32,000 bases of DNA from Candidatus Saccharimonadota bacterium (GCA_002952755.1 CP025011.1:540001-572000), one strand, 5' to 3'; counted from the first letter of the stretch, positions 13,432-30,896 are shown. The notes: generated from the letters alone by a model not told the origin. Translations and numbers: made by a program.

Positions 13432-13521
13432 ATCTATTGTAATACCCCCTGTCTATACTGCTGCGACCTCCAACCTAGAACGCGATCTTCTTACCCAAGC
13501 AACAAATTGCATTGACTTTTA

Positions 13522-13533: not shown

Positions 13534-13546
13534 GTATTGTTTAGTC

Positions 13547-14128: not shown

Positions 14129-14137
14129 GGAGGAGAT

Positions 14138-14362: not shown

Positions 14363-14433
14363 CCAGCAGTATACTGCTTACGGAGTTGGTCTATCCGAGG
14401 TGATGCATAGGATTAGCTCCGTGGCCGCTACTT

Positions 14434-14874: not shown

Positions 14875-14917
14875 ATTTCTAGTGCAAATCCATAAGTTGC
14901 CGGCGCATCTTGAGAAT

Positions 14918-15220
14918 TTACCAATTACCCGTACGCAGCTCGACTTGATCGCCGAAGGTGAGATTGCCCAGAGACTGTGGCAACTCACTACACAGGTATA
15001 GCTCTGGGTGATCTTCTCCGGGCCGGATAGATACGTGGTTGCTTTTAAAGAGCTCCCCCTGATGTAGCGCATACAGCACGTTCGCTACAGATACAGAGGG
15101 ATCGGTTTGGATACTTACGTAGGGCCATTTTTCACCTTCCTCAAGTTCGGGGGTGACCGTTGCCTCTATGCCTCTATTATGTAAGGCCTTAATGATCTTT
15201 TCGCGCCCTTTTTCGTTCAT
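14918..15220 (-). CDS. Hypothetical small protein (100 aa)
   Basis: ORF 14918..15292 trimmed to ATG 15220, which has AGGAG 8 nt upstream on the coding strand. No recognisable motif. Confidence 0.45.
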   Translation of the reverse strand: MNEKGREKIIKALHNRGIEATVTPELEEGEKWPYVSIQTDPSVSVANVLYALHQGELFKSNHVSIRPGEDHPELYLCSELPQSLGNLTFGDQVELRTGNW

Positions 15221-15317
15221 CGGTGTACTCCTAATATTGTAAGCATACTGGCGCAGAATTGATACTGGGTCAATAATCTTATTATATAGCAACGCATGAG
15301 ATGAGGGCGCAATTAGC

Positions 15318-16091: not shown

Positions 16092-16093
16092 CG

Positions 16094-17023: not shown

Positions 17024-17035
17024 GTCCCCCCCTGT

Positions 17036-17380
17036 TTATTTTTCCAGCTTCTTGGTAATAGCGCGGTTCAACTCTTCACGCAAGCTGTCCTCGTAAGTTT
17101 TTTTGTCGTGGACAAGACTGTCGACGAACGTAGCAACGTCATCCCCGGTAACTTCCAACACATGTTTGCCGGCGGCTATGCCTGCTTCAAATTTGTCTAC
17201 AATCTGCGTAAATAGATCGGTCGGGTCTATGGCTCCGACGCCACCATGCCATACGAAATTTTTGATCTCATTGTAGACGGTTCGGTACTCTTGGGGCAGG
17301 GAGTTGGCACGTGCTTCTATCGCCTTCCATTCTTTTTTGCCTTGCAAGTCGCCAATGATTTTGTTTAGTAAGCCGTTCAT
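17036..17380 (-). CDS. DUF1048-domain protein
   Basis: 114 aa. KKEWKAIEARANSLPQEYRTVYNEIKNF... matches the DUF1048 family, which is usually found next to PadR-like regulators. Its ATG overlaps the upstream regulator stop (ATGA). Confidence 0.75.
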   Translation of the reverse strand: MNGLLNKIIGDLQGKKEWKAIEARANSLPQEYRTVYNEIKNFVWHGGVGAIDPTDLFTQIVDKFEAGIAAGKHVLEVTGDDVATFVDSLVHDKKTYEDSLREELNRAITKKLEK

Positions 17381-17868
17381 AGCATCTCCTTATTTTTATA
17401 TTCCTGTGATTTTTTGTGATACGCCGCCCACTCTTCGTACAGTTGCGGCAGTCTTTCTACCATAAATTCGTTCAGTGAGGCAACGGCTTCAAGCGATTGA
17501 CGCCGCTCTGACGGCTCATTTCCAAGTAGCTCTAGCCCCTCCCGTGCTAGATTTGCCATGTGCTGGTACTCAGTGGGGTCAAAGCCCATACTTTCCTTGC
17601 TGAGCGGACTAAGATGAATGAGGTCTGCCCGGGTACCGGCTGGTCGTGAGCGTGTAATAAGCCGTTGCGCCTCCAATGTTTTGACGGCGCTGTTAATAGC
17701 GCTGCGACTCGTAAGAAGGGTTTTAGCGATATCGTTTATCGATTGTTCTGCCGGCTGGCACACGTATAGATAGCCAATTAGCCGGCCTGCTACCGGCGAA
17801 AGCCCATAGCGCTCAGCATAAAATCGCCCCGTATGGTCGGCCATGATGAGTACTTTATCTCGGTCCAT
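17377..17868 (-). CDS. GbsR/MarR-type winged-helix transcriptional regulator
   Basis: ORF 17377..17901 trimmed to ATG 17868 (MDRDKVLIMADHTGRFYAERYGLSPVAGRLIGYLYVCQPAEQSINDIAKTLLTSRSAINSAVKTLEAQRLITR). This matches the GbsR-like pattern: G-x-P-x-x-x-GR-I, HTH, then wing. ATG 17844 is an alternative start. Confidence 0.7.
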   Translation of the reverse strand: MDRDKVLIMADHTGRFYAERYGLSPVAGRLIGYLYVCQPAEQSINDIAKTLLTSRSAINSAVKTLEAQRLITRSRPAGTRADLIHLSPLSKESMGFDPTEYQHMANLAREGLELLGNEPSERRQSLEAVASLNEFMVERLPQLYEEWAAYHKKSQEYKNKEML

Positions 17869-18162: not shown

Positions 18163-19164
18163 ATGCAAGAATTTCTAGAGCTTATAAACCGCTATCCTTC
18201 CCCACATAACGGGCAACCCATTCGATTGAAACAGACCAGCAACGAGGCATTTGAGCTCTATTTTGATAAAAGCAGGGGTTTGCAGGCTGCCGATATCTCT
18301 TTCATCTTCAGTTTTGTTTCCATGGGTGTATTTGTGGAGCATATGAGACTGTGTGCGCAGGCACTCGGACATGGCTTTATCTATACTTCACTGTTGCCTT
18401 CCGAGAAGGAATTGCACGGCAATGGCACCATACTATTCGCGCGCTGTAGGGTTGATTGGAATGGCGCAAAGAAAGATATGCGGCTCCAGCAAACATTGCG
18501 TTTCCGTCAGACATCCCGAAAGAAGTACTACGAGGGACCGAGCGTTGAGCTCGTAGACTGTATTCAGCGCATTGCCTCGGACAATCGTATGAGACTCTCT
18601 GAGCTGGATGCTGCCCAGGCCGTGCAGGCTATATGGCTGAATCAGCGTGCGGTATTTGATGATTTGCGCGACGAACCATTGCGGCGCGAGCTCGATCATT
18701 GGCTGCGATACACGCAAGCAGAGAAGCAACATAAGAAAGACGGCCTAGCCTATGATTGCATGGAACTCAATGGCCGATTCATGAAGTACACCGTCGACCA
18801 TCCGGGCATACTACGAGCTCCTGGCATTTCTCAGTTCCTCAAGCAGTACTATTTGCGCACGATGAAAGATGCGAGCAGTGTTTTTTATATGATGGCGCCA
18901 TTCGGCTCGGAGCAAAACGCATTTGACGTGGGTATGGTTATTATGAAGATCTGGAAAGAGGTGGCAGAGGCTGGCGATTACCTTCATCCGTTTGGTACTA
19001 TCATGAGTAACCACGCTGCTCATGGCGATTTTCTCCGGCTTATCGGCGAAGATCATGAGTCTCGCGAGCGTTCGTATTTAGTCTTCATCTTCCGTTGCGG
19101 AAAATCGAAGCCACCAATCCCCAGCCTGCGATTGCCCTATACAGAACACCTAATAATGGAGTGA
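18163..19164 (+). CDS. Acg-like double-domain nitroreductase-fold protein
   Basis: 333 aa. N-terminal RYPSPHNGQPIRL resembles the R-A-P-S-x-H-N-x-Q-P-W motif of Acg/Rv2032-type proteins. A second LRFRQTSRKKY segment resembles the R-R-T-D-R motif at about residue 110. The size matches the family, about 330 aa. Confidence 0.65.
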   Translation: MQEFLELINRYPSPHNGQPIRLKQTSNEAFELYFDKSRGLQAADISFIFSFVSMGVFVEHMRLCAQALGHGFIYTSLLPSEKELHGNGTILFARCRVDWNGAKKDMRLQQTLRFRQTSRKKYYEGPSVELVDCIQRIASDNRMRLSELDAAQAVQAIWLNQRAVFDDLRDEPLRRELDHWLRYTQAEKQHKKDGLAYDCMELNGRFMKYTVDHPGILRAPGISQFLKQYYLRTMKDASSVFYMMAPFGSEQNAFDVGMVIMKIWKEVAEAGDYLHPFGTIMSNHAAHGDFLRLIGEDHESRERSYLVFIFRCGKSKPPIPSLRLPYTEHLIME

Positions 19165-19167
19165 GTT

Positions 19168-20703
19168 ATGTTCGAAGGTCTATATATTGGCTTTGTCGCC
19201 CTATTAGATAAAATAATCTGGACGATTGACGTTGGTCCGTCGGTGCACAAGATCTTTTTGTCGCCCAATATCGGCACCTTTCGTGAAGGTCTGGGGCGAG
19301 TGCGGGCGGTACGCCTGTACCGGCATGCTGTCAGGCGGGTGCCGGCGTATGGCGACTATATATCGAAGCATTCTAGCCATGGGCCCAAAATCAGTATGTT
19401 TAAGGCCTCACTACGGGACGTGCCCGAGATGGATAAGGCCAACTATATTAGGCAGTACTCACTGACGGATAAGATATGGGATGGGGCGCTACCCATGGGT
19501 GGTGTCATGTTTGATGAATCGTCAGGAAGCAGTGGTACCCCTACCAGCTGGGTCCGCGGCACGAAGGAGCGGCGCTTCACGCAGCGGATCATGCAAGTGG
19601 CCTTTCGCCACTATATCGAAGACAGGCATCCGATTGTCATTAATACTTTTTCTATGGGTGCATGGGCCACGGGGCTTAATACCACGATCAGTTTACTGGG
19701 CGTTAGCCGCGTAAAGTCTACGGGGCCAGACATCACAAAGGTGATCGATACGCTCAAAGAACTAGGAAGCCAGTTTGAATATGTGATCACCGGTTACCCA
19801 CCATTTTTAAAGCAGGTTGCCGATAGTACCGAACTTGATTGGAAAAAGTACCGTATCGCTGCCATCTATGGGGGCGAGGGCATTAGTGAGTCAATGCGGG
19901 CTTCCCTTTTGGAGCGCTATGCTGACGTGGTTGGCTCTTACGGGGCGTCGGACCTCGAGATTAACATTGCACATGAGTCCAGGTTTACGATCGCGCTTAG
20001 GCAAGCTTTAATTGAGGACGAAGCGCTGCGCCAGGCGCTGTTGCAGCAAAATCGGGGCATCGTGCCGATGATATTTCAATATAATCCGTATGATTACTTA
20101 TTTGAGACAAACGAAAAAGGCGAGCTGCTGGTAACGATCTGCCGCTTGGAAAACCTCAGCCCACGCATTAGGTATAACATCCACGACCTCGGGCATGTGG
20201 AGCAATTCTATATCTTAAAGAAGAAGCTAAAGGAGCTTGGTAGAACTGATTTGCTGAAACTTGCCGAGCTCGATTTTGCAGTGCTTTTCCATTATGGTCG
20301 GAGCGATTTGTCGGTGGACTATAATGGAGCAGTCGTGGGGCCTGAAGAGGTTAAGCAGATCATCAACGCCCACAAGAAGTTTGCCGAAAAGATCGAGGGT
20401 TTTCGCCTAATAAGTTACGAAGACAAACAATCGCATAAGCACCTGCTCATAGCCATTGAGTTGGCTAAAGATCAAACCATACAGACGGTAGATGCAGACG
20501 CGCTGCTTGGCCATATTACTGAGCAGCTGCAAGTTATGAATCTGGATTTTAAATCCGCTCACCACACAGCGCCATTAAAGCCGGAGATGCGAATATACGC
20601 ACATGGCGAAGGCATATTCGACCCTGCTCATCAAAAGCTTAAGAACGACTACGTGTGGAATATCGACTATGCGCGCGCTCAAAAAGAGGGCCTGGTGCAG
20701 TAG
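19168..20703 (+). CDS. Adenylate-forming enzyme, phenylacetate-CoA ligase / CapK / coenzyme F390 synthetase-like
   Basis: 511 aa. ESSGSSGTPTSW is a variant of the SSG(T/S)(T/S)G-x-P AMP-binding loop of the PaaK/CapK family, with YGGEGISE and YGASD downstream. GGAG SD lies 7 nt upstream, and the ATG is 4 nt after the nitroreductase stop. Confidence 0.75.
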   Translation: MFEGLYIGFVALLDKIIWTIDVGPSVHKIFLSPNIGTFREGLGRVRAVRLYRHAVRRVPAYGDYISKHSSHGPKISMFKASLRDVPEMDKANYIRQYSLTDKIWDGALPMGGVMFDESSGSSGTPTSWVRGTKERRFTQRIMQVAFRHYIEDRHPIVINTFSMGAWATGLNTTISLLGVSRVKSTGPDITKVIDTLKELGSQFEYVITGYPPFLKQVADSTELDWKKYRIAAIYGGEGISESMRASLLERYADVVGSYGASDLEINIAHESRFTIALRQALIEDEALRQALLQQNRGIVPMIFQYNPYDYLFETNEKGELLVTICRLENLSPRIRYNIHDLGHVEQFYILKKKLKELGRTDLLKLAELDFAVLFHYGRSDLSVDYNGAVVGPEEVKQIINAHKKFAEKIEGFRLISYEDKQSHKHLLIAIELAKDQTIQTVDADALLGHITEQLQVMNLDFKSAHHTAPLKPEMRIYAHGEGIFDPAHQKLKNDYVWNIDYARAQKEGLVQ

Positions 20704-20808: not shown

Positions 20809-21384
20809 TTATTGGCCTGTAAGCTTTAAAAATCGCCCAGCGGCTTCCGGGTCCAATGAGGTTTTTAGGGTGAGGTTAGAATTTTCGACTCTTAGCTTTT
20901 GCAGCTCGGCATCGTTCTGAGGTGATTTAGACAAGATAAGCCGCTGTAGCAATATTGTTAGTGGCTCGCCTACAGCTTTCTTAAAGTTAAAACCAACCAA
21001 TTGCATGACGGTAATTGTTTCTTTTGACAGGACAGCTTTTATAATAGCCACGTAACTTTGTAACTTTTCGCGCTCCGCCCCTTCGCTATTATTCTCAATA
21101 AGTTTTTCGAGTAACGGCACGATGGTGTGTGTGATGTATTCAATGTCCTCTTCGGAGATTTGTTGAGAGACGAGCTCGTGCTCATAGGCCTTTGCGATTC
21201 GGATCCCTTCGTTCTTATCGGCCAATAATACGTTTATAGTTTCTTCAAGGTATCGGATCGTTTTTTCGTGTTCTTTGCTTTGCTTATAAGATTCTAATTT
21301 CGTATTAATGGATGCAGCTGTGTTTCTTGCCAGTAGTTCTGCAAGCCGCATGGCAAGCTCCGAGGTCTGTCTTTCCGTGTCCAT
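20809..21384 (-). CDS. Hypothetical all-helical protein (191 aa), partner of upstream nuclease-like gene
   Basis: Composition is rich in E/K/L/A and reads as predicted helices or coiled coil. No catalytic motif or TM segment. The gene lies 71 nt downstream of the nuclease-like gene on the same strand. Spot GC counts are low (22/60 and 26/60). Confidence 0.55.
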   Translation of the reverse strand: MDTERQTSELAMRLAELLARNTAASINTKLESYKQSKEHEKTIRYLEETINVLLADKNEGIRIAKAYEHELVSQQISEEDIEYITHTIVPLLEKLIENNSEGAEREKLQSYVAIIKAVLSKETITVMQLVGFNFKKAVGEPLTILLQRLILSKSPQNDAELQKLRVENSNLTLKTSLDPEAAGRFLKLTGQ

Positions 21385-21455: not shown

Positions 21456-22358
21456 TCAAGCCGATGAATGCAAAGGGAGTGGCCAGCCAACCACAATAAC
21501 ATGCACGGTAAGGCCGTTACTGTCGCCCGAAAGATCACTTTCGAAGCCAGCGCTGTTGGTAAAAGTCGAAGCTAGATCGTACACCACAGCGATAAGTGTC
21601 TTGACGCTCGGATGTTCTTCATAGTCGTGTATATCAACGAGCAATTCTTTCTTAATGTCTTTTTCGTGGCGACCGGGCTTCGTTACCTTGACCTCTACTG
21701 CAATCTCTTCTCTTTTGAGTAAAAAATCCATGGTGCTTGATGATCCTGCGCTGCTGGGACTTCGTTCTTCCGCTCTTACATCTGGGTAAAAGGAATTTAG
21801 CATAGCATGGACGGCGTCTTGTACATCATATTCGTCGGTGATAGAGAAGGGTACACGACCTTTCCGAGTCCTGACGACCAGTGGCCGCATGGCGTTCGGA
21901 AGGCGGCGGAGTGAGCTTATGAGTAGTGCAGTACTAGGTATGGAATGTTCGAGTGTATCTACGACGAGTGTAGGAGGTTTCGCTATCGGTGCGTTTGGTG
22001 CGGGCTTGCCGCTCTTGCTGGAGCTGCTGCGCCAGTTGACGAACCCTTCTGGTGTCAGCGAGTGGCCATGCCTTGAAAGGGCGATTGCAAGTACTTTTCT
22101 CTTCGGGTCCTTAGGGTCATCAAAATAGCCTTGCGAGCGCAAAACGTTGAGCAGTTCTTCTATAAGGGGCTGTATGACATCATCGCTGGCGTCTAAAATA
22201 GCCTGACTTATTCGAGCGCTCTTGCTTGCTGGCCGTGGTTCGTCTTCCATATAGCCGGCAAGGATAAAGGCAGTATCGATTGAAGAATGGGAGGGTCCCA
22301 TGCCATTAAACCAATAAGCGTTGAACGCGCTGGCGACTTCTCTCCGGGGAAAATCCAT
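21456..22358 (-). CDS. Two-domain protein: N-terminal helical domain + C-terminal PD-(D/E)XK nuclease-like domain
   Basis: 300 aa. The C-terminal segment reads ITDEYDVQDAVHAMLNSFYPDVRAEERSPSSAGSSSTMDFLLKREEIAVEVKVTK...LLVDIHDYEEHPSVKTLIAVVYD. It contains an acidic helix, then D (MDF), then 10 residues, then E-V-K, which is canonical PD-(D/E)XK spacing. The N-terminal domain of about 110 aa (NAYWFNGMGPSHSSIDTAFILAGY...) is joined to it by a Ser/Pro/Lys-rich linker. Confidence 0.6.
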   Translation of the reverse strand: MDFPRREVASAFNAYWFNGMGPSHSSIDTAFILAGYMEDEPRPASKSARISQAILDASDDVIQPLIEELLNVLRSQGYFDDPKDPKRKVLAIALSRHGHSLTPEGFVNWRSSSSKSGKPAPNAPIAKPPTLVVDTLEHSIPSTALLISSLRRLPNAMRPLVVRTRKGRVPFSITDEYDVQDAVHAMLNSFYPDVRAEERSPSSAGSSSTMDFLLKREEIAVEVKVTKPGRHEKDIKKELLVDIHDYEEHPSVKTLIAVVYDLASTFTNSAGFESDLSGDSNGLTVHVIVVGWPLPLHSSA

Positions 22359-23436: not shown

Positions 23437-24237
23437 CTATACCACAGCTTTCGGTTGTTTGCCTGCGGATTCAAGCACCTCTCTCGACGCTTCTCCGCAA
23501 TTAAAGATAAGATCAAAAATACTAAGCCTAGGCATAAAAGGTTCATTCGGCTCGAATTGATACTGTCGATAGACCGGATGATGGAAAGGATAGGGGCTCA
23601 GCGCAATACCTGCATCGACGATCTTTTCTCCCTCCGTCATATTACTTCCGTCAAACTTCTTATTCAGGTAAGAGTCTTCCCGTATGGGGCCGCCTCCGGG
23701 AAGATAAATGACTTCATCATATTCATCTGTAGCGACGGCTCTCTTGATGCAGTCAACGAGAAAATCACCTTTCTTATAGCCGTTATTCATCCAGCCATTC
23801 TGACTATCTCGGACGTAGGGCGTATCGATATTGAGAATGGATTTTGCATAGAGCGTAAGCGCATCGCATAGATCATTAAGGTATAGCCATTCTTGAGAAT
23901 AGATTTCCTGTAATGGCTCGGCGTAAGCCTTGAAGAAAGGCGTTTTTTGATACACGTCCTTTATATATCTCCAATGATCCCATAAAGCTCGTGTATTCGT
24001 GATCTTCTTTGCCATAATAGGCTCCGGTCCATTATTCACCGAAACCGAGAGCCATTTGTCCCTGCCCGCATAGTGGAATTTTTGCCGATTTTGCCACTCG
24101 CGCTTTACGTACTGCGCGGTATCCATAGAAACAAACACGTCGCTCAGCAGCATCTTATAAAAATAGCCAGAATATCGGTGGTACCCGGGTTGATGTACGG
24201 CGACAGCAATAGATCTTTTGGCGGTTCTTGTGGACAT
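23437..24237 (-). CDS. WbqC-like family protein
   Basis: 266 aa. The N terminus IAVAVHQPGYHRYSGYFYKMLLSDVFVSMDTAQYVKREWQNRQKF matches the WbqC-like pattern (Q-P-x-Y-x-P-x-x-G-Y-F...D-x-F-V-x-x-D-x-x-Q-(F/Y)-x-K-x-x-W-x-N-R). The biochemical function of this family is unknown, and members are usually found in glycan loci. Confidence 0.75.
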   Translation of the reverse strand: MSTRTAKRSIAVAVHQPGYHRYSGYFYKMLLSDVFVSMDTAQYVKREWQNRQKFHYAGRDKWLSVSVNNGPEPIMAKKITNTRALWDHWRYIKDVYQKTPFFKAYAEPLQEIYSQEWLYLNDLCDALTLYAKSILNIDTPYVRDSQNGWMNNGYKKGDFLVDCIKRAVATDEYDEVIYLPGGGPIREDSYLNKKFDGSNMTEGEKIVDAGIALSPYPFHHPVYRQYQFEPNEPFMPRLSIFDLIFNCGEASREVLESAGKQPKAVV

Positions 24238-24356
24238 CAGAAAAATCTCCTGATAATTTTATAGGTCAGGGAACCCGACCTTGGTAACGATAATAGCATG
24301 CTTACGCACAGCTGATATACTTTACAGAAAATGCATAGGGGGTGCTTGAAGCAGAG

Positions 24357-26042
24357 ATGGATTTCTATTTTCAAGGTCTATTGTCTCAATATCATAAGTC
24401 CAGTGTTATTAAATACCAAATAGCTCGTGTATTGGAAAATCGCGGTGATTTTCTCCCCGCTGGCTTCATACCTGCAGATCAACACTCAAAGCGCCTTAAC
24501 ATCCTCATGTATGACGAGGTTATTGCGGCTGCTATGCAAAGTAAGCAACATGCTGTTCGGCTACTGTATCAAGAGCTCCACGGGGGTATTGGTACTGGTG
24601 TACAGCGTGATACCTATCTGCGGCACAGGCAGCTCGGGCCGGTTACGGCAAAGGGGATGGATTTAGCCTTTGAAGTATTGGCGCGAGGCGAGAGGCACTA
24701 TTTGAGCATTCTAGAAATCAGGTTGCTTAGATTGTTGCAAGAAGCCGATCGTTATAGCGAGATCGCTCTTCAGTACATCATTAATCCCGACAATCAATTG
24801 GCCCTGGATAGAATCCTCGATAAACCTAATTTCGACTTACTGTCTCAAGGGTTACCAGAAAAATCTTACCGCCGCTACCTCGCTGAACACGATCGTCTAA
24901 GCTTAGGAAGTTTTTTATACCAAGACCTCAATCCCACTGTCGAATACACTAGTGGCAATTTGAGTCAGGAACATAAAGCCCCTGGTGGGCATGGTGAACT
25001 AGCGACATCCTCGTTATATCAACTTGCGACGAAACCAGAAAGCCACGCTGTCAAAACTATACGGGTCTATTGTAAGGGTAATTCTGTTAATGAGTCTCCA
25101 GACGAATCAATAGTTCGATGGATGTCGAGTAATTGCATTCCCATTGTTATGACGGCAAGACTGCGCACGCCGACCGATACTTACGGCGGGATCTTCGGCT
25201 TGGAAAGACTCTCTAACGGTGCTGAGGTGCTGCAGCTGTTTGAGCGAGATCAGGCAGAGGAGAGCGGTCAGATAGACATGTTCTTGGACCACTCATACCC
25301 TCAGTACTATGACACTAATACTATTCTCGTAAATGATAGCGTCCTTGCACCTTTCTTAAGCGAGCTGAGGCTCCTTATAGGTGATGAGACTTATCGGCGT
25401 ATAATCACGGCTGAATTGCATCAAAATTGTAAGGAAGTCAACGGAAAGCGATATATCCAGCTCGAAGGTATCTTAGCTAGCCCTTTCTTAAAATTGAATC
25501 GTTTTATTATGGGGAGTTCTAGCCCGCGCATACTTGACCTACGAAACAAATATGGTTTTGATAAATTAATCTATCTTATCAACGTTGATACCCGCTGGCC
25601 TGCGTCGACATCGATAAAGACAGCTTTTAATTTTTGGCTTTTTGCACACACAGACCACTTTTACCTTGATACGAAAAAATGGACCCTTGTAAATAGGCGC
25701 CCAGGGCATGCAGTAATGTTGGGTAGGGAGCTGTTAGGAAGCGTATATTATAACGATCTCCATGACCTTATTGGAGCGCTCAAGGATGTAAGTGTAGTTG
25801 ATCTCGACTATCTTGATATCAAAGGCAAGGTGAAGCTGTCGGGTGCGAAATTTGCAGGGAGCGTTCATATCGCCAACGATTCAGGCAGAGTTTTTGATTT
25901 AAATATGCCATCTTCTAGGAATGCGTTACTCATCGGCGCCGATAGGCGAATACATTTAGAAAATGTATTCGTTTCGATTAATAAAAGCGGCCAGGTAAAG
26001 GTACAGCGATTACCTAAGCCTGAACAGAAGATACGCCTGTGA
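24357..26042 (+). CDS. UDPGP-family (eukaryote-type UTP--sugar-1-phosphate uridylyltransferase-like) nucleotidyltransferase
   Basis: Motifs: ELHGGIGTGVQRD (cf. L-N-G-G-L-G-T), APGGHGELATS (cf. P-x-G-H-G-D), YYDTNTILVND (cf. F-N-T-N-N-L). The C terminus has a beta-helix-like region (VVDLDYLDIKGKVKLSGAKFAGSVHIAND). The ORF opens at GTG 24342. ATG 24357 is chosen as the start, but this is uncertain because the AGGGGG at 24336-24341 fits neither start well. Confidence 0.7.
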   Translation: MDFYFQGLLSQYHKSSVIKYQIARVLENRGDFLPAGFIPADQHSKRLNILMYDEVIAAAMQSKQHAVRLLYQELHGGIGTGVQRDTYLRHRQLGPVTAKGMDLAFEVLARGERHYLSILEIRLLRLLQEADRYSEIALQYIINPDNQLALDRILDKPNFDLLSQGLPEKSYRRYLAEHDRLSLGSFLYQDLNPTVEYTSGNLSQEHKAPGGHGELATSSLYQLATKPESHAVKTIRVYCKGNSVNESPDESIVRWMSSNCIPIVMTARLRTPTDTYGGIFGLERLSNGAEVLQLFERDQAEESGQIDMFLDHSYPQYYDTNTILVNDSVLAPFLSELRLLIGDETYRRIITAELHQNCKEVNGKRYIQLEGILASPFLKLNRFIMGSSSPRILDLRNKYGFDKLIYLINVDTRWPASTSIKTAFNFWLFAHTDHFYLDTKKWTLVNRRPGHAVMLGRELLGSVYYNDLHDLIGALKDVSVVDLDYLDIKGKVKLSGAKFAGSVHIANDSGRVFDLNMPSSRNALLIGADRRIHLENVFVSINKSGQVKVQRLPKPEQKIRL

Positions 26043-26351
26043 TGTATGGCTGAGTCACTATAAATCTTCCTGAGAGACGTGGTGGCTCGAGGCATACACG
26101 CTTTCGAATAAAGCGTAAGCATGATATCCTAGTGCAGTTGCCTACATGATACGCTACAAAAACGGAACATACGGACTGCTAACAGAGTGAAACTTTGTAG
26201 TGACGCAAGGGGTACGATCGGACTGTACTAGTTTTCTGACATTTTGAATACATGCTGCTATCTCATGCAGTATCGAGTGCGATGGCGGGGTTGTTTTAAC
26301 TATAAGTGGGTACGATTTGGGAGTGCCCGGCATTTTTAGAAGGGGGTATAA

Positions 26352-27773
26352 ATGCGTGAAAAATTGTCGATTGGGTCAGCTCACTATGTAGAACAGAAGA
26401 CCAAAGAGATAGCGACTCACATCTCTGACAGATATAAAAATATGCCCTATAAGGACTTGCGAGAAAATGACGGCAAGTACTTATGCCGTAGCCTTGTGCC
26501 TTCATCTGACCTTGTTTTTCTAACAGGTAGGGGCATTGTGCTCAAGACGAACAACGGCACGTTTTATGACTTTGGGTCGATGTCGTTAAATTGCTTGCTG
26601 GGCCAAAACGATCCTTGGGTTAATGCTAACCTTGTTTCCTATATATTGAGTGGCAGTCCTTCATACGCAACTACGAGCGCTGGTACGCCGTTGTATTATG
26701 AGCTAGCAGAAAAACTCTCGAAGCTGAGTGGTATTAAAGACGCCGTAGTAAATCATCGTCAATGTAATGGGTCGGATGTAACAGAACTGGCCATAGTAGC
26801 TGCCTATAAGCACAAGAAAAAAGGACAGCGTTACGTTGTATCGTTTAAAGGCTCGTACCATGGTCAGAATCTTACCTCCTATGCAGTTTCCGATCTGCAG
26901 CGCGAGAATCGTTTTCTGGTTGGTGACGAGACCTCGACTGTGTTCCTGGACACCCCCTCTCATACTCAGGCGGATGATGATCAAACGAAATTGTCGGACA
27001 ATGATAAAGACATACTAAAGAGCCTAGAGAGAGTTGGGAAAGAGGCCTTTGCGGTAATTATAGAGCCAGTTCAAGTCAATAATCGGGTTAATATAGCTTC
27101 CAAAGTATTTCTGGCATCCCTAAAACAACTATGTGAGCAGCTTGAGATCCCGCTCATCTTCGATGATATCCAAACAGGATACGGATGGCTTGGTACGTTC
27201 TCCAGTTCAGAATATTTTGGCGTGACCCCAAATATGATGGCCGTGAGCAAGGCGCTTACCTCGGGCTATGGTCCGCTTGCAGCGCTTATTATGGATCCTA
27301 AGTATGGCGACCTACCGGATAGTACGGTCAGGAAGACTAACGGCGCTGACATGAGGTCTTTGGTCGCTGCTAAGGCTGTGATTGAGCGTTTAAGTGGGAT
27401 TGAGGAAGACTTAATCCCTAGTGACCTCGAAGAATCTTTTAAACAAGAATTAAAAGACGGATTGCTTGCCTCATTGCCAGAGAAAGAGACATCCCTAAAA
27501 TTTCACCTTGTTCATCTCAAGACGAGATATCCCAAAGTGTTTGGCGAGCTGCGAGGAGCTGGTCTTATTTGGAGTATCGATATTGTTGATAAGGAAGGCC
27601 AGCTAGACCTTAAAGCCTGCAAAATGATCCAACAAGGGCTTTTAAAGCGCGGAGTCTTCGTGCGGGACGTGAGAGGCGCCCTCCTATTTAAGCTCCCTAT
27701 TGTCTTTGAAGAAGATGAATTGCAGCAAGGCTTCGACATAATCGACAGTTACCTTCAGACACTGTCTCGTTAA
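26352..27773 (+). CDS. Class-III pyridoxal-phosphate-dependent aminotransferase family protein (transaminase or phospho-lyase)
   Basis: 473 aa. Motifs: FYDFGSMSLNCLLGQNDPWV (cf. DF-x-sg-x-x-x-x-LGH-x-x-P), NGSDVTELAI, SFKGSYHGQN, AVIIEPVQ, FDDIQTGYGWLGTF (cf. DEVQTGFGRTG), and AVSKALTSGYGPLAA with the Schiff-base Lys. SD AAGGGGG lies upstream of ATG 26352. Confidence 0.85.
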   Translation: MREKLSIGSAHYVEQKTKEIATHISDRYKNMPYKDLRENDGKYLCRSLVPSSDLVFLTGRGIVLKTNNGTFYDFGSMSLNCLLGQNDPWVNANLVSYILSGSPSYATTSAGTPLYYELAEKLSKLSGIKDAVVNHRQCNGSDVTELAIVAAYKHKKKGQRYVVSFKGSYHGQNLTSYAVSDLQRENRFLVGDETSTVFLDTPSHTQADDDQTKLSDNDKDILKSLERVGKEAFAVIIEPVQVNNRVNIASKVFLASLKQLCEQLEIPLIFDDIQTGYGWLGTFSSSEYFGVTPNMMAVSKALTSGYGPLAALIMDPKYGDLPDSTVRKTNGADMRSLVAAKAVIERLSGIEEDLIPSDLEESFKQELKDGLLASLPEKETSLKFHLVHLKTRYPKVFGELRGAGLIWSIDIVDKEGQLDLKACKMIQQGLLKRGVFVRDVRGALLFKLPIVFEEDELQQGFDIIDSYLQTLSR

Positions 27774-27808
27774 ACCCGCTAATAAATACCCTAAGAAGGA
27801 GGTGGATC

Positions 27809-29194
27809 ATGGAGGATGTAGATCGTATTGTCAGGAACAGGTTCTTAGGCAGCAAGATTGAGTTGAACGATAGTTATAAAGAGATTGTAGAGTATGTCAA
27901 TCGCAGGACTCCTACGGCGTATGGTGAAGTCAAATTTATTAGTGAGGGGGATGTATGTAATATTACGCTGGATGATCCTCGGTCAAGGGATGCATTGCTC
28001 ACCATCATTTCAGACGTCCAACGTAATAATAACTACAATGTAGCTCTCCAGTGTCAGCTGGAGGATTTCATCCGAGACGGCGAAAGCCTCGTAAGAGTTT
28101 TGTATGGCGGGTCAGCGGGACAGATCCTGCTGCTTAAGCGTGATGCCAGCGGCGAGCTTTTTGTTCGAAAGGTTGCAGCGAGATTCGGGGTTGAAGGCAA
28201 TGGCACCCCTAAGCTCGAAGCCGAAATCAATTTTTTGCTTGAGATTAATCGAGAGCTGGCATGTGACAAATTAAAAGATCTATTCCCCCGAGTGTTCGGT
28301 TATTCTCAAGGGGATAAATTTATTACGCTTGACCAGGAATACGTGGGTAAGGGAAGAAACGTATTGACTCTGCTTGTCCGGAACGGAATAGCACCCGAGG
28401 AACATTTCGAATACATCGATACACTTCTATCCTCCCTAATACCCCATGGCTACGCCTTGAAATCACGCCTTGTCCACAAGGACGAGTCGTTGGAACAGCT
28501 AGAAGATTACTACCTGCGCCGGGCTGAGGGTAGAATACGGTTTCTCCAAAAGTGTGACGATTTCCAACTAGATTTTCCTACGACTAAGCTAACTTCACTA
28601 CCAGAGTTGATAAAAAGAAAAGATTTTCGGATAAATGGGGCTACTTATCGAAATCCCCTAGAGATCATAGCCAGCATTAGGGCCAATGGTTCTTTGGCAC
28701 GGATACTGAGGCCACGAACGGAGAGTTTTTGCGCCCATGGTGACCTAACGTTCTTAAATATAGTGTTTGATGACGAAGCAAGAGCCTACAAACTAATTGA
28801 CAATCGGGGCCACATCGGCAACTGGGACCCTCTATACGACTTTGGTAAACTGAAGTTTACTTTGAGCGGCTTTGGGCAAATTATGCTTGGGGATTTTGCA
28901 CTTAGCGAAGACGCTAGCGGCGCTTTTTGTCTTGATATAACGGGTGGCGGCAAGAAAGCTCTACAAGATCTAAACGATTCTTTCTTTGAGGACATTTCAA
29001 AAAATGAAGCATTTAGGGAGCTTATTAAAGATGAGCCATATTGGCGGGAGAGAATTCTATTTGCAGAAGCGATACATTACTTATCTGATATTCCCCACCG
29101 GCTCCTCTTGGACAAATCACCAAAAAATGCGGTAGGCGTATTCCTTCTAGGGACCAGACATCTCAATATGCTATATGAGGATCTCTATAAATGA
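27809..29194 (+). CDS. APH/choline-kinase-fold small-molecule kinase with about 95-aa N-terminal extension
   Basis: 461 aa. Gly-rich loop YGGSAGQILL, beta3 Lys in FVRKVA, alphaC Glu in EAEINFL, catalytic loop CAHGDLTFLNIVF and Mg-binding LIDNRG. Strong SD AAGGAGGTGGATCATG. Confidence 0.75.
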   Translation: MEDVDRIVRNRFLGSKIELNDSYKEIVEYVNRRTPTAYGEVKFISEGDVCNITLDDPRSRDALLTIISDVQRNNNYNVALQCQLEDFIRDGESLVRVLYGGSAGQILLLKRDASGELFVRKVAARFGVEGNGTPKLEAEINFLLEINRELACDKLKDLFPRVFGYSQGDKFITLDQEYVGKGRNVLTLLVRNGIAPEEHFEYIDTLLSSLIPHGYALKSRLVHKDESLEQLEDYYLRRAEGRIRFLQKCDDFQLDFPTTKLTSLPELIKRKDFRINGATYRNPLEIIASIRANGSLARILRPRTESFCAHGDLTFLNIVFDDEARAYKLIDNRGHIGNWDPLYDFGKLKFTLSGFGQIMLGDFALSEDASGAFCLDITGGGKKALQDLNDSFFEDISKNEAFRELIKDEPYWRERILFAEAIHYLSDIPHRLLLDKSPKNAVGVFLLGTRHLNMLYEDLYK

Positions 29195-29994
29195 GCGACT
29201 ACCAAGAGCAGGAGTTTACACTCGCGGATCTCATAAGAAAAGAGGGGCTAATCTTAGAAGAGGCCCTAGATCCGGGCGGTGTTATTGAAGCAATCCTGCC
29301 TGGAGAAGGAGGGCTAAAGCCTCCACTTATGATTGGTATCGATGGGTCTGTAACAGCCGGTAAGTCGTATATATCCTCTAAAATACATGAATGGTTAGTC
29401 CAGCACGGTCTTGACTGCGTGGTTATTCATGGCGACTGGTATATGAGTCCGCGGAAGGCAAGAGCGCAAGAGGTTGAGAAAGCTATGCAAGCAACATATA
29501 ACATCGCCACATACGATGAGGTAGCTTGTGACTATGAAAAGATTACGGCTGCCCAGACAAACATTTTTGACTTCTTCCAGGCGGGCGATGACTCTTATGA
29601 ATTTAAACTATCTGGAGCCTATAGCAGAGAATCGGGGAATCTTGATGGGACGATTGATATCCCAATAACTAGCCAGTCGGTTGTCATATTCGAAGGGACG
29701 GGCGTTATTAATTCTATCACGAGTTCAAAGTTTGACTTAGCGATACGCGTAGATGTGGGCACCTACGACGAGACTGTTAGGCGTCTATACGAGCGGGAAT
29801 CTCAAAAAGACGTGTCGCTCCGAATTCCAGAGCCTCTCGTTAAGCAACGCTACGACCATATCGATTATCGTTACGACTGCTATCTACGATTGAGAGATAG
29901 TCAGTTCTTTGACATTTTATTAGACACGTCAGATACATCCTTAATAAGGATGTATAGGCGGAAATCGGCAGGGAATGTTTCCGTCGAAGTGTAA
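29191..29994 (+). CDS. P-loop kinase, uridine kinase/phosphoribulokinase (PRK) family-like
   Basis: 267 aa. Walker A is in MIGIDGSVTAGKSYISSKI, with VVIFEGTGVINS as a Walker-B/lid-like strand (cf. Udk). The start overlaps the upstream kinase stop (ATGA), so the two genes are translationally coupled. Confidence 0.7.
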   Translation: MSDYQEQEFTLADLIRKEGLILEEALDPGGVIEAILPGEGGLKPPLMIGIDGSVTAGKSYISSKIHEWLVQHGLDCVVIHGDWYMSPRKARAQEVEKAMQATYNIATYDEVACDYEKITAAQTNIFDFFQAGDDSYEFKLSGAYSRESGNLDGTIDIPITSQSVVIFEGTGVINSITSSKFDLAIRVDVGTYDETVRRLYERESQKDVSLRIPEPLVKQRYDHIDYRYDCYLRLRDSQFFDILLDTSDTSLIRMYRRKSAGNVSVEV

Positions 29995-30137: not shown

Positions 30138-30896
30138 ATGAGCGCGTTCGAAGAGGCATTTGGCACAGAGCCCCCTTATATCCCAGAGCTAACTCGCCTC
30201 AGCGCGGGACCCAACTATACTACGTACTGTCATAAAGACCGGACGCTCGCCGTCCATGAAACTCTCCTCGGTTTTTCTGCAGCCGAACTACCTGCCGGGG
30301 CACGGCTTTTGGTTATCGGACCTGGTGCGACGCGGCGGTTTGAGCGGCAACTTAATGAGGCGCGTCCAGACATATATGCAGTTAGCGTAGACCCGCTTCT
30401 GCGATATGGAATACGAGAGCGGCATCTTGAATCAATTCGTTGGGGTGGCCGTCGTAAAGGAAGCAGCTTTATCTATAAGAAAGATGAATATCCAACCGAG
30501 ATTATGAACGGCCATCCCTACTTTCGACAAGCGGCTGTTTGCGGTGGCTTTGTAGCGCTGCAGCACGATGGAGCGGGCGGACAGTCCGAGACGCAGTATA
30601 ATTATCTTCCTTTTCGGGACGATACCTTTGATGCGATTCTAGGGTTGCATTCGGTCCCGCAATATGTCCCAACGGAACATATACCGGCACTTATGGCGGA
30701 CATTATACGCGTTGCTAAGCCCGCTGGCCATGTGGCATTGTTTCCTGTTCTCAACGAAGATATTCCCGCTGTTACCGAAATAATTAAAAAATCCCCGGAC
30801 ATAGGCGAACCATTGCTCGATGATCCCGCACACTCCTATTTCGATAGTATCTGGCCGGACGAGGGTAAGCGATTCAGTTTTACCAAGGTGGCGTAG
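30138..30896 (+). CDS. Class I SAM-dependent methyltransferase
   Basis: 252 aa. Motif I-like ARLLVIGPGATRRF, an acidic post-I residue in AVSVDP, motif IV-like FDAILGLHSVPQYV, and IIRVAKPAGHVALFP. A spot GC count (35/60) resembles the flanks rather than the upstream cassette. Confidence 0.7.
   Translation: MSAFEEAFGTEPPYIPELTRLSAGPNYTTYCHKDRTLAVHETLLGFSAAELPAGARLLVIGPGATRRFERQLNEARPDIYAVSVDPLLRYGIRERHLESIRWGGRRKGSSFIYKKDEYPTEIMNGHPYFRQAAVCGGFVALQHDGAGGQSETQYNYLPFRDDTFDAILGLHSVPQYVPTEHIPALMADIIRVAKPAGHVALFPVLNEDIPAVTEIIKKSPDIGEPLLDDPAHSYFDSIWPDEGKRFSFTKVA

What the first reader, a model, noticed from the sequence alone, without database searches (positions are those of the whole stretch)
23437..29994. 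Five-gene cassette (WbqC-like, UDPGP-type nucleotidyltransferase, class-III aminotransferase, APH/ChoK-fold kinase, Udk-like P-loop kinase) that fits no pathway I recognise
Seen in sequence:
- A WbqC-like gene (-) is divergent from a UDPGP-like gene (+).
- After a 309-nt gap comes a tightly packed trio: aminotransferase, then a 35-nt gap with an AAGGAGG SD, then the kinase, then an ATGA overlap into the P-loop kinase.
- Catalytic motifs are intact in all four enzymes: LHGGIGTG/PGGHGE/DTNTILVN; DDIQTG...VSKAL; GGSAG...VRKV...HGDLTFLN...IDN; GIDGSVTAGKS.

Established knowledge: an APH-fold kinase plus a nucleotidyltransferase is the recurring two-step route to NDP/CDP-activated sugars or amino alcohols. 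Examples are NahK plus UDP-sugar pyrophosphorylase, AmgK plus MurU, and LicA plus LicC. WbqC-like proteins of unknown function sit in glycan loci.

Inference: the cassette builds or salvages a nucleotide-activated amino compound. The mix is atypical in three ways:
- The aminotransferase is class III, not the DegT sugar type.
- There are two unrelated kinases.
- The nucleotidyltransferase is eukaryote-type.

No glycosyltransferase, LicD-type transferase, flippase or polymerase lies in the window. There is a loose parallel to the aminoribosyl branch of uridyl-nucleoside antibiotic pathways (aminotransferase, uridylyltransferase and an APH-like resistance kinase). The dioxygenase, phosphorylase and glycosyltransferase of those pathways are absent here.
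Basis: partly seen in the sequence, partly recalled or inferred. Interest (0 to 1): 0.8.

Follow-up and report, generated by a model that had tools for sequence, protein, structure and literature searches.

The report
Orphan amino-compound activation gene cassette
The five genes are real and linked, but the conserved unit is a pair of unrelated kinases (usually with an unusual aminotransferase) that recurs almost only in tiny symbiotic Saccharibacteria-type bacteria and always sits beside some nucleotide-attaching enzyme, so it most likely builds a still-unknown nucleotide-activated amino sugar or amino polyol.

Summary
All five ORFs, their junctions and their motifs are as described. The five-gene set recurs in only two other contigs. 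The conserved core is the protein-kinase-like kinase (KIN; no Pfam, NCBIfam or PDB sequence match) plus the Udk-like P-loop kinase, found together in 23 of 28 assessable loci, mostly Saccharimonadales and other CPR.

The class-III aminotransferase sits directly upstream in every locus where KIN lacks an intact N-terminal NDP-sugar-type SDR domain (12 of 12 assessable). It is never present where that domain is intact (0 of 13). Transamination therefore seems to have replaced a redox step.

A nucleotidyltransferase accompanies the core in non-homologous forms: UDPGP-like here, GT-A type NTP_transferase elsewhere, NadD-like HIGH type in Saccharimonadales. KIN-related domains also occur fused to SDR, GT-A NTase, UDPGP-like, class-III aminotransferase and PRK-like domains. 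NUDIX and HAD phosphatases recur in relatives but are absent from this window.

Best reading: kinase then nucleotidyltransferase activation of an amino sugar or amino polyol. The substrate, the role of the second kinase and the role of WbqC are unknown. No described pathway, defence system or paper found matches it.

The parts
23437..24237 (-). WbqC-like protein (266 aa), divergent from the UDPGP-like gene. A lineage-specific accessory gene of unknown chemistry.
   Evidence: PF08889, E 1.3e-37. No NCBIfam or PDB hit. Conserved at 68-69% identity in the same divergent position only in L011 and L012. Absent from all other KIN loci.
24238..24356 (.). 119-nt divergent intergenic region between the WbqC-like and UDPGP-like genes. 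Presumably holds the divergent promoters.
   Evidence: Sequence read. GGAG lies before the WbqC start on the minus strand, and a G-rich stretch lies before ATG 24357. The promoter scan is not above chance.
24357..26042 (+). UDPGP-family (eukaryote-type UGPase-like) nucleotidyltransferase, 561 aa from ATG 24357. An alternative GTG start at 24342 gives 566 aa.
   Evidence: PF01704, 22.5 bits against cut-off 22. The profile hits only eukaryotic UGPases in the PDB, E 1.6e-10. GGxGT, PGGHG, NTN and Lys421 are invariant. Only 4 family members were found among 5.8 billion proteins. A 26%-identical domain is fused directly to a KIN domain in P0159. The AlphaFold model was unusable (pLDDT 41).
26043..26351 (.). 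309-nt gap upstream of the aminotransferase. Probably holds the promoter of the AT-KIN-PLOOP operon. It contains a 23-nt motif at 26138-26160 shared with L012.
   Evidence: No Rfam match even at E<=1. No conserved leader across loci.
26352..27773 (+). Divergent class-III (fold-type I) PLP enzyme, 473 aa. Presumed aminotransferase.
   Evidence: PF00202, E 2.2e-41, with no NCBIfam equivalog. Lys300 and Asp271 are invariant. Canonical GRTG is replaced by GWLG, EPIQGEGG by EPVQVNNR, and the C-terminal carboxylate Arg by invariant Lys447. It lies directly upstream of KIN in 12 of 12 assessable loci whose KIN lacks an intact SDR domain.
27809..29194 (+). KIN: protein-kinase-like-fold small-molecule kinase, 461 aa, of a rare family with no Pfam model. 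Its first ~40 residues are a remnant of an SDR domain.
   Evidence: No Pfam, NCBIfam or PDB sequence hit. Only 28 close relatives. AlphaFold pLDDT 88, pTM 0.89. Foldseek top hit is methylthioribose kinase, followed by protein kinases. K121, E139, H310, D312, N317 and D331 are invariant. N-terminal R11, G14 and P35-T36-x-Y38-G39 are invariant and align inside the SDR region of the fused forms.
29191..29994 (+). PLOOP: Udk/PRK/CoaA-superfamily P-loop kinase, 267 aa, translationally coupled to KIN through an ATGA overlap.
   Evidence: Sub-threshold Udk/PRK hits. The profile hits 1rz3 (3.8e-8), uridine kinases (2e-6) and pantothenate kinase (6e-5). Walker A G52-K58, D82, E168 and lid arginines are invariant. 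It lies next to KIN in 23 of 28 assessable loci. It is fused with SDR~KIN in P0038. The 4-nt overlap is conserved in L004, L010, L011 and L012.

Best explanation
The cassette is a lineage-specific version of a conserved, almost CPR-restricted module. That module converts a small carbonyl-bearing sugar or polyol precursor into a nucleotide-linked (NDP-) amino compound.

Proposed steps:
1. The class-III PLP enzyme aminates a keto or aldehyde group. In sister lineages this carbonyl is handled by an NDP-sugar-type SDR domain fused to the kinase.
2. KIN phosphorylates a hydroxyl, probably the anomeric or terminal one, as MtnK, NahK, AmgK and ChoK do.
3. The UDPGP-like enzyme joins the phosphate ester to an NMP from an NTP.
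4. The Udk-like P-loop kinase, translationally coupled to KIN, performs a second phosphorylation. Either it makes a transient bisphosphate, as in the heptose 1,7-bisphosphate logic, with HAD phosphatases present in relatives. Or it phosphorylates the nucleoside moiety.
5. The WbqC-like protein tailors the product.

Shown: gene linkage, fold and family of each enzyme, intact catalytic residues, the fusion network, and the SDR/aminotransferase exclusivity.

Inferred: order of steps, substrate class, the role of the second kinase, and the role of WbqC.
For: (1) Synteny. KIN and PLOOP are adjacent in 23 of 28 assessable non-redundant loci. The aminotransferase is directly upstream in 12.

(2) SDR/aminotransferase exclusivity. 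Loci whose KIN carries an intact GxxGxxG SDR domain have no aminotransferase (0 of 13). Loci with a degenerate or truncated SDR remnant have it (12 of 12 assessable).

(3) A nucleotidyltransferase accompanies the core in non-homologous forms:
- UDPGP-like in the window, L011 and L012.
- GT-A type NTP_transferase in L004, L007, L010, L024, L025, L027 and L028.
- A NadD-like protein with GTFDPQHIGH and SSSRIKELR motifs in the Saccharimonadales operons.

(4) Rosetta-stone fusions among the top profile hits: 38 carry an SDR domain next to KIN, and 19 carry a GT-A NTase next to KIN. P0159 is UDPGP-like~KIN, P0112 is class-III AT~KIN, and P0038 is SDR~KIN~PRK-like.

(5) The fused SDR domains resemble NDP-sugar enzymes: dTDP-glucose 4,6-dehydratase, RmlD and HldD. 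Distant relatives are strongly RmlD-like, E 1.7e-49.

(6) Accessory genes fit sugar or polyol phosphate and NDP-X metabolism: HAD close to hexitol phosphatase HxpB (E 4e-49), NUDIX of NudE/ADP-sugar type, and GT4, a GalE/TviC-like epimerase and an ATP-grasp ligase in L004.

(7) Catalytic residues are intact and invariant in all four enzymes.

(8) An aminotransferase homologue (43% identity) in Cupriavidus sp. WGtm5 sits with a TagD-like cytidylyltransferase, a TagF-like glycerophosphotransferase and an Fe-ADH.
Against: - No substrate is identified.
- The window has no oxidoreductase or dehydratase to make the carbonyl, and no transferase to use the product.
- Class-III aminotransferases are not known to act on NDP-sugars; those enzymes are DegT-type (established knowledge).
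- The aminotransferase has lost several canonical class-III motifs, including the carboxylate-binding Arg. It may not be a transaminase at all.
- The role of the Udk-like kinase is unexplained by simple kinase-then-NTase logic.
- Three loci (L003, L008, L014) show no recognisable NTase; they carry an unidentifiable 400-aa protein instead.
- NUDIX, the NadD-like NTase and the Udk-like kinase would equally suit nucleoside or dinucleotide metabolism.
Confidence: 0.45

Rival explanations
1. Nucleoside, nucleotide or dinucleotide-cofactor salvage or remodelling. The Udk-like kinase phosphorylates a (modified) ribonucleoside, an NTase makes a dinucleotide or NDP derivative, and NUDIX and HAD enzymes recycle it. 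The aminotransferase or SDR modifies the ribose or base moiety, as in aminonucleoside-type chemistry such as the puromycin pathway.
For: - The P-loop protein's only relatives are uridine/cytidine kinases, pantothenate kinase and, weakly, NR kinase.
- The Saccharimonadales operons carry a NadD/FAD-synthetase-like HIGH-type NTase, a NudE-like NUDIX and two HAD phosphatases.
- The HAD_2 member also scores on pyrimidine 5'-nucleotidase, E 8e-14.
- The probable host genome cannot make nucleotides de novo (PMC6031116).
- From memory, the puromycin pathway combines an oxidoreductase, an aminotransferase, a NUDIX, a phosphatase and methyltransferases.
Against: - UDPGP-like and GT-A NTases are sugar-1-phosphate enzymes.
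- The fused SDRs resemble NDP-sugar enzymes.
- GT4 and a GalE-like epimerase occur in L004 and L028.
- The HAD's best match is hexitol or sugar phosphatase.
- SDR and aminotransferase are mutually exclusive rather than sequential.
Confidence: 0.2
2. A catabolic or detoxifying pair. KIN O-phosphorylates a 1,2-amino alcohol and the class-III PLP enzyme acts as a phospho-lyase that releases phosphate and ammonia. This is what hydroxylysine kinase plus PHYKPL, and ETNPPL, do in animals. The remaining genes would be unrelated.
For: - Class-III lyases exist, and their known partner is an APH-fold kinase (Veiga-da-Cunha 2012, cited in PMC8154272).
- The PLP enzyme has non-canonical active-site motifs and Lys in place of the carboxylate Arg.
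- It scores on the PbfA ammonia-lyase model at E 6.5e-30, a score no better than for many transaminase models.
- An AT~APH fusion (P0112) matches the KIN profile.
Against: - It does not explain the strictly linked second kinase, the recurring NTases and NTase~KIN fusions, NUDIX, GT4, or the SDR/aminotransferase exclusivity.
- The aminotransferase precedes the kinase in every operon.
- P0112's aminotransferase is only 23% identical.
Confidence: 0.12
3. There is no pathway. The five genes are unrelated housekeeping genes (GalU/UGP, ArgD/GabT, Udk and a stray kinase) that happen to be neighbours.
For: - Only 3 loci have all five genes.
- The 309-nt gap separates the UDPGP-like gene from the trio.
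- The cassette neighbours differ between loci.
Against: - No protein reaches any NCBIfam equivalog cut-off. For example, udk scores 21.7 against 220 bits, and the best aminotransferase model scores 134 against 552.
- The KIN and UDPGP-like families are extremely rare, with 28 and 4 members among 5.8 billion proteins.
- Synteny is conserved and start/stop codons overlap across phyla.
- Domain fusions link every component to KIN.
Confidence: 0.03

Closest known systems
Sugar-1-kinase plus pyrophosphorylase salvage: NahK + UDP-sugar pyrophosphorylase, plant sugar-1-kinases + USP (PMC3659416, PMC6329318), and AmgK-MurU-MupP (PMC5371407)
   Same: A protein-kinase-like-fold small-molecule kinase is coupled to a nucleotidyltransferase. 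Related loci add a HAD phosphatase, as MupP does. The window's NTase is of the UDPGP/USP superfamily. Kinase~NTase fusions exist among relatives, as in FKP-type enzymes.
   Different: KIN is not detectably a member of PF01636 and has no close characterised relative. A second, P-loop kinase is obligatory. A class-III PLP enzyme, or an NDP-sugar-type SDR, is part of the unit. The substrate is unknown, and no NCBIfam equivalog (MurU, GalU and so on) is matched.
ADP/GDP-heptose biosynthesis (HldE or HddA kinase, GmhB HAD phosphatase, HldE-C or HddC NTase, HldD extended-SDR epimerase)
   Same: The Saccharimonadales versions have the same parts list: two phosphorylation activities, HAD phosphatase(s), a HIGH-type NTase (GT-A type in other lineages) and an extended SDR. 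This would give the second kinase a role through a bisphosphate intermediate.
   Different: The kinases are non-homologous (PKL fold and Udk-like, against PfkB or GHMP). There is no GmhA-type isomerase. The window version has no SDR, HAD or HIGH-type NTase. This is resemblance by composition only.
Branch point in deoxysugar pathways between an NDP-4-keto-sugar 4-ketoreductase (RmlD) and a 4-aminotransferase
   Same: An RmlD/NDP-sugar-type SDR and an aminotransferase are mutually exclusive alternatives in otherwise identical operons. From memory, WbqC-like genes occur in O-antigen clusters that make N-acylated 4-amino-6-deoxyhexoses.
   Different: The aminotransferase is class III, not DegT/VioA type. 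No 4,6-dehydratase is present in the cassette. Kinases have no place in classical deoxysugar pathways.
Hydroxylysine kinase + 5-phosphohydroxylysine phospho-lyase, and ethanolamine-phosphate phospho-lyase
   Same: An APH-fold kinase is paired with a class-III fold-type I PLP enzyme.
   Different: Those pairs are catabolic and need no NTase, second kinase, NUDIX or SDR. Sequence similarity is only at superfamily level.
Aminoribosyl branch of uridyl-nucleoside antibiotics (LipL/LipO/LipP/LipM/LipN)
   Same: An aminotransferase, a uridylyltransferase and a kinase-like protein lie in one locus.
   Different: The dioxygenase, phosphorylase and ribosyltransferase are absent here and in all 40 related loci. 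The host lineages are CPR with minimal genomes, not actinomycetes.

Membership tests
UDPGP (PF01704) nucleotidyltransferases | Pfam score at or above the gathering threshold | tested here: met
   22.5 bits against a cut-off of 22, which is marginal. Homologues P0030 and P0032 carry PF01704.
UDPGP (PF01704) nucleotidyltransferases | Collinear similarity to solved UGPases, including the GGxGT loop, the PGGHG/NTN core and the C-terminal catalytic Lys with the beta-helix | tested here: met
   The profile hits only eukaryote-type UGPases, E 1.6e-10 to 8e-7, in three collinear segments. G77, G79, G211-H212-G213, N321 and K421 are invariant.
UDPGP (PF01704) nucleotidyltransferases | UGPase fold in a structural model | tested here: inconclusive
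   The AlphaFold model built from 4 sequences has pLDDT 41 and is unusable.
GalU/UGP housekeeping orthologue | Match to an NCBIfam equivalog model | tested here: not met
   No NCBIfam family at E<=0.01.
APH/ChoK phosphotransferases (PF01636) | Pfam model match | tested here: not met
   No Pfam hit for the window protein. Only distant relatives (P0089, P0108, P0121, P0129) hit PF01636.
APH/ChoK phosphotransferases (PF01636) | Bilobal protein-kinase-like fold | tested here: met
   pLDDT 88. Foldseek probability is 1.0 to methylthioribose kinase (E 3.5e-6) and to protein kinases, but TM is only 0.39-0.44.
APH/ChoK phosphotransferases (PF01636) | Catalytic Lys, Glu, the HxDxxxxN loop and the metal-binding Asp | tested here: met
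   K121, E139, H310-G-D312-x4-N317 and D331 are invariant in 28 sequences.
Uridine kinase Udk (TIGR00235 / PF00485) | Score at or above the curated cut-off | tested here: not met
   TIGR00235 scores 21.7 against 220.3 bits. PF00485 scores 17 against 22.
Uridine kinase Udk (TIGR00235 / PF00485) | Walker A, the substrate Asp after strand 2, and the Arg-rich lid | tested here: met
   G52-K58, D82, and R186, D188, R198 and R202 are invariant. The profile hits uridine kinases at E 2e-6.
Class-III aminotransferases (PF00202) | Pfam match, Schiff-base Lys and PLP-N1 Asp | tested here: met
   E 2.2e-41. K300 and D271 are invariant.
Class-III aminotransferases (PF00202) | Membership of a characterised subfamily (ArgD, GabT, BioA, EctB and others), and the conserved carboxylate-binding Arg | tested here: not met
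   The best NCBIfam score is 134 against a cut-off of 552. The Arg is replaced by invariant Lys447, and GRTG by GWLG.
WbqC-like (PF08889) | Pfam match over the whole domain | tested here: met
   E 1.3e-37, profile positions 1-216 of 218.
AmgK-MurU-MupP / LicA-LicC type two-step activation | A PKL kinase genetically coupled to an NTase | tested here: met
   Adjacency is seen in the window, L004, L007, L010, L011 and L012, and in the Saccharimonadales operons. NTase~KIN fusions also exist.
AmgK-MurU-MupP / LicA-LicC type two-step activation | The kinase product is the NTase substrate | not testable with these tools
   This needs coupled enzyme assays.
Uridyl-nucleoside aminoribosyl pathway | Presence of the UMP dioxygenase, the phosphorylase and the ribosyltransferase | tested here: not met
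   None is found in the window or in any related locus.
Known anti-phage defence systems (PADLOC) | Any cassette protein matching a defence model | tested here: not met
   0 hits for all five proteins.

The most novel reading that the evidence does not exclude
The module may be a CPR-specific pathway to a previously unseen nucleotide-activated amino sugar or amino polyol. In it, a class-III PLP enzyme has evolutionarily replaced an RmlD-like NDP-sugar ketoreductase domain. That would be the first class-III aminotransferase in nucleotide-sugar chemistry. A new Pfam-less kinase family and an obligatory Udk-like partner kinase would supply a bisphosphate or doubly activated intermediate. The product would be a cell-surface or small-molecule determinant of the epibiotic lifestyle.
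Probability: 0.2. Interest if true: 0.8.

Novelty: new variant of a known kind. Interest (0 to 1): 0.62.

Why it matters
Saccharibacteria and other CPR bacteria have tiny genomes, so a tightly conserved operon of four to seven genes is likely to matter for their biology. This one contains a kinase family that no domain library recognises. It also shows an unusually clean evolutionary swap of an NAD-dependent redox domain for a PLP enzyme, and non-orthologous replacement of the nucleotidyltransferase.

Identifying the product would add a new activated building block to bacterial glycobiology or cofactor chemistry. It would give functions to several orphan families: KIN, the Udk-like partner, the divergent class-III enzyme, this bacterial branch of UDPGP, and possibly WbqC. 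It could also reveal a molecule involved in the epibiont-host interaction.

The enzymes might serve as tools for chemoenzymatic synthesis of NDP-amino sugars.

Tried and rejected
- **Rfam.** Searches at the gathering threshold and at E<=1 found nothing, and upstream alignments showed no conserved riboswitch or leader in the 309-nt gap.
- **Promoters and terminators.** The scan was not above the shuffled expectation.
- **UDPGP-like structure.** The AlphaFold model failed (pLDDT 41), so no fold search was run on it.
- **F11 and the NadD-like protein.** The F11 profile found nothing in the PDB, its three members found nothing in Pfam, and the NadD-like profile found nothing in the PDB. Reading F11's 'LPHMHI.KGG' as a HIT/GalT-like motif remains speculation.
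- **PADLOC.** No defence-system match for any cassette protein.
- **Window accessories.** A search of the window for NUDIX, HAD, NadD-like, F10, F11 or EgtD-like homologues found none.
- **Literature.** Searches for WbqC, Saccharibacteria + aminotransferase/kinase, class-III aminotransferase + NTase clusters, and nucleotide-sugar salvage in Saccharibacteria found no description of this module.
- **Cupriavidus 754-aa protein.** The KIN HMM does not detect it. Its kinase-like and pol-beta-NTase-like motifs are my reading of the sequence only.
- **Rejected readings.** Housekeeping-gene coincidence, a known antibiotic aminoribosyl pathway, and a known defence system.

Full report
**Observation**

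I checked the junctions base by base:
- The WbqC-like and UDPGP-like genes are divergent across 119 nt.
- A 309-nt gap (26043-26351) precedes the aminotransferase.
- AAGGAGG lies 7 nt before the kinase ATG at 27809.
- The kinase stop overlaps the P-loop start as ATGA at 29191-29194.

Family assignments hold, but with very different strength:
- WbqC (PF08889, E 1e-37) and the class-III aminotransferase (PF00202, E 2e-41) are solid.
- The UDPGP match is at the Pfam threshold (22.5 against 22 bits). A five-member profile hits only eukaryote-type UGPases in the PDB, E 1.6e-10 to 8e-7. The hit covers three collinear segments that include GGxGT, PGGHG/NTN and the C-terminal Lys.
- The 'APH/ChoK-fold kinase' (KIN) matches nothing in Pfam, NCBIfam or PDB sequences. 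A confident AlphaFold model (pLDDT 88, pTM 0.89) is protein-kinase-like. Methylthioribose kinase is the top Foldseek hit, but TM is only 0.39-0.44. The Lys/Glu/HxDxxxxN/Asp set is invariant in the family.
- The P-loop protein (PLOOP) is sub-threshold for Udk/PRK. Its family profile hits 1rz3, uridine kinases and pantothenate kinase, E 4e-8 to 6e-5.
- None of the proteins reaches an NCBIfam equivalog cut-off. They are not GalU, ArgD/GabT or Udk orthologues.

**Origin of the window**

The identical proteins lie on an NCBI contig of 1,450,269 bp. The window's GC content is about 49%. This fits the closed 1.45-Mb, 49.95% GC rhizosphere Saccharibacteria genome of Starr et al. 2018 (PMC6031116). The match is plausible but I did not verify it. 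That organism cannot make nucleotides de novo.

**What is conserved**

- KIN is rare. There are 28 clusters among 5.8 billion proteins.
- The UDPGP-like protein is rarer still, with 4 clusters.
- I examined the genomic context of KIN relatives from protein look-ups, a GTDB genome scan and a metagenome scan. This gave about 31 non-redundant loci.
- Named records are almost all Candidatus Saccharimonadales/Saccharibacteria. There is also one Zambryskibacteria and one 'Gammaproteobacteria' MAG.
- All five genes recur only in L011 and L012, where KIN is 73% and 68% identical.
- The true core is KIN followed by PLOOP, adjacent in 23 of 28 loci where this can be assessed. The pair often shares the same 4-nt overlap.

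**The SDR/aminotransferase swap**

KIN occurs in three forms:
- With an intact N-terminal extended-SDR domain carrying GxxGxxG (685-730 aa).
- With a degenerate SDR domain (about 660 aa).
- With only a roughly 40-residue remnant, as here. Its invariant R11, G14 and P35-T-x-Y-G39 align inside the SDR region of the fused forms.

The aminotransferase is directly upstream of KIN in 12 of 12 assessable loci of the second and third forms. It is present in 0 of 13 loci of the first form. The fused SDR domains resemble NDP-sugar enzymes (dTDP-glucose 4,6-dehydratase, RmlD, HldD). More distant KIN relatives carry a strongly RmlD-like domain, E 1.7e-49. The simplest reading is that a PLP-dependent amination replaced an NAD(P)-dependent step on the same carbonyl intermediate.

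**Nucleotidyltransferases and other partners**

A nucleotidyltransferase accompanies the core in non-homologous forms:
- The UDPGP-like protein in the window, L011 and L012.
- GT-A type NTP_transferases in L004, L007, L010, L024, L025, L027 and L028.
- In the Saccharimonadales operons, a 340-aa protein with GTFDPQHIGH and SSSRIKELR motifs. It gives weak NadD/FAD-synthetase hits.

A profile search of 1.84 billion representatives found 1782 distant relatives. Among the top 150:
- 38 carry an SDR domain and 19 an N-terminal GT-A NTase. Both counts are lower bounds from seed searches.
- P0038 (2116 aa) joins SDR, KIN and a PRK-like P-loop domain.
- P0112 joins a class-III aminotransferase and an APH-type kinase.
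- P0159 (6244 aa) joins a UDPGP-like domain directly to a KIN domain. That domain is 26% identical to the window protein, E 1.5e-49.

Every enzyme of the cassette except WbqC is therefore linked to KIN by a fusion somewhere.

Recurrent accessories are:
- NUDIX hydrolases of two types.
- HAD phosphatases of three types. One is close to hexitol phosphatase HxpB, E 4e-49. One is Cof-type. One is recognisable only by its DxDxT motif.
- An EgtD-like methyltransferase in L003, L011 and L041.
- In the Zambryskibacteria-type operon, a transketolase-like protein, a GT4 glycosyltransferase, a GalE/TviC-like epimerase and an ATP-grasp ligase.

None of these accessories has a homologue anywhere in the 32-kb window. 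The window holds a minimal version of the module.

**The PLP enzyme**

It belongs to a tight, highly conserved clade. It keeps Lys300 and Asp271. It replaces canonical GRTG by GWLG, EPIQGEGG by EPVQVNNR, and the carboxylate-binding Arg by invariant Lys447.

Its best PDB relatives are racemases and beta-alanine:pyruvate transaminase, at only about E 1e-24 to 1e-26.

Homologues at 62% identity or more share contigs with KIN hits, judged by matching contig lengths. Homologues at 40-50% identity occur in other CPR phyla, in Cupriavidus sp. WGtm5 and in Acidiferrobacteraceae. Homologues at 33-37% identity occur in actinomycetes.

In Cupriavidus the homologue sits with a 754-aa unknown protein, an MFS transporter, a TagF-like glycerophosphotransferase, a TagD-like cytidylyltransferase and an Fe-ADH. 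The 754-aa protein is not detected by the KIN HMM. By eye it carries 'WGDMAPRNILV...ILDFE' and 'SDIDIGVF' motifs. This is again a setting of activated polyol phosphate.

**Mechanism**

The best-supported model is a kinase-then-nucleotidyltransferase activation route, as in NahK/USP, AmgK-MurU-MupP or LicA-LicC. It would act on an amino sugar or amino polyol whose amino group the PLP enzyme installs on a carbonyl precursor.

The obligatory Udk-like kinase is not explained by that simple scheme. There are two options:
- A second phosphorylation that gives a bisphosphate trimmed by a HAD phosphatase. The ADP-heptose pathway has the same parts list of kinase, HAD, HIGH-type NTase and extended SDR, but with non-homologous kinases.
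- Phosphorylation of a nucleoside moiety.

WbqC would tailor the product. Its chemistry is unknown. From memory, WbqC-like genes sit in O-antigen clusters for N-acylated 4-amino-6-deoxyhexoses. That would fit the ketoreductase-versus-aminotransferase branch point of deoxysugar pathways.

Shown: linkage, folds, intact active sites, fusions, and the SDR/aminotransferase exclusivity. Inferred: substrate class, step order, and the roles of PLOOP and WbqC. Confidence is about 0.45.

**Rivals**

- Nucleoside or dinucleotide salvage, or aminonucleoside chemistry (0.2). The Udk-like kinase, the NadD-like NTase, NUDIX, the HADs and a nucleotide-auxotrophic host favour it. The sugar-1-phosphate-type NTases, the NDP-sugar-type SDRs and the GT4 count against it.
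- Kinase plus class-III phospho-lyase catabolism of an amino alcohol, as for hydroxylysine kinase/PHYKPL (PMC8154272) (0.12). The odd active site and the AT~APH fusion favour it. It leaves PLOOP, the NTases, NUDIX and the SDR swap unexplained.
- Chance neighbours (0.03). Synteny, overlapping genes and fusions contradict it.

**Comparison and novelty**

No PADLOC model matches any cassette protein. No Rfam element is present. No curated family names the pathway. Literature searches found no description of it.

The logic is a known kind, small-molecule kinase plus NTase. The composition is new: a Pfam-less kinase family, an obligatory second kinase, a class-III PLP enzyme replacing an SDR domain, and interchangeable NTases including a bacterial UDPGP branch. 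I rate it a new variant of a known kind, with interest 0.62.

Noticed in passing
window 21456-22358 (-) and 20809-21384 (-): A 300-aa protein with a DpnII/MboI-type REase domain (PF18742, E 5e-36) matches the PADLOC model 'Aga_Helical-REase' (E 4e-23). It is followed by a 191-aa protein with no hits. This may be a small defence gene pair right next to the cassette.
   Followed up: partly
window 18163-19164 (+) and 19168-20703 (+): A tightly spaced pair. A 333-aa protein has a weak nitroreductase-like hit, and a 511-aa protein has a weak PaaK-like (adenylate-forming) hit. The pair is not conserved in L011 or L012, and its function is unknown.
   Followed up: partly
window 30138-30896 (+): A 252-aa protein with weak SAM-methyltransferase hits lies 143 nt downstream of the P-loop kinase. 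It has no counterpart in related loci. Those loci instead carry an EgtD-like Methyltransf_33 gene (L003, L011, L041).
   Followed up: partly
window 26138-26160; L012 7098-7120: A 23-nt motif, TTGNNNAYATGWTRYRCTWCAAA, is shared about 200 nt upstream of the aminotransferase gene in the window and L012, with a looser copy in L011. In L012 it overlaps a TTGACA-N17-TGTAAT promoter-like site. It may be a promoter or an operator.
   Followed up: partly
P0159 (6244 aa, from the profile search); residues ~726-818, 1468-2006, 1957-2341: A giant predicted protein has an N-terminal membrane anchor, several NUDIX domains, a membrane segment and a directly fused UDPGP-like~KIN unit. It could be a gene-calling artefact or a real multi-enzyme protein.
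   Followed up: partly
L003 12186-13406, L008 12211-13383 (-), L014 5089-6300: A conserved protein of about 400 aa (F11) lies next to the P-loop kinase in the three loci that lack any recognisable nucleotidyltransferase. It has no Pfam or PDB hit. Its invariant 'LPHMHI.KGG' stretch is reminiscent of HIT/GalT-type motifs, but this was not tested.
   Followed up: partly
L023 (Cupriavidus sp. WGtm5, JALHRY010000013.1) 9570-17730: An aminotransferase homologue (43% identity) sits in a cluster with a 754-aa unknown protein, MFS, a TagF-like glycerophosphotransferase, a TagD-like cytidylyltransferase, Fe-ADH and a LuxR regulator. By eye, the 754-aa protein has kinase-like and pol-beta-NTase-like motifs. 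This is a culturable handle on the aminotransferase family.
   Followed up: partly
window 6632-7759 (-) and 7692-9050 (-): A PfkB-family sugar kinase ORF and a Mur-ligase-like ORF overlap by about 68 nt as listed. The true start of one of them is probably further downstream.
   Followed up: no
L010, L011, L012, L007 flanks: The closest relatives of the cassette sit beside toxin-antitoxin pairs (PIN/RHH, BrnT/CopG, HicAB) or recombinase/RhuM genes. This suggests a variable or mobile genomic neighbourhood. The SDR-fused versions lie among housekeeping genes such as ribosomal proteins, gyrB and ftsZ.
   Followed up: no
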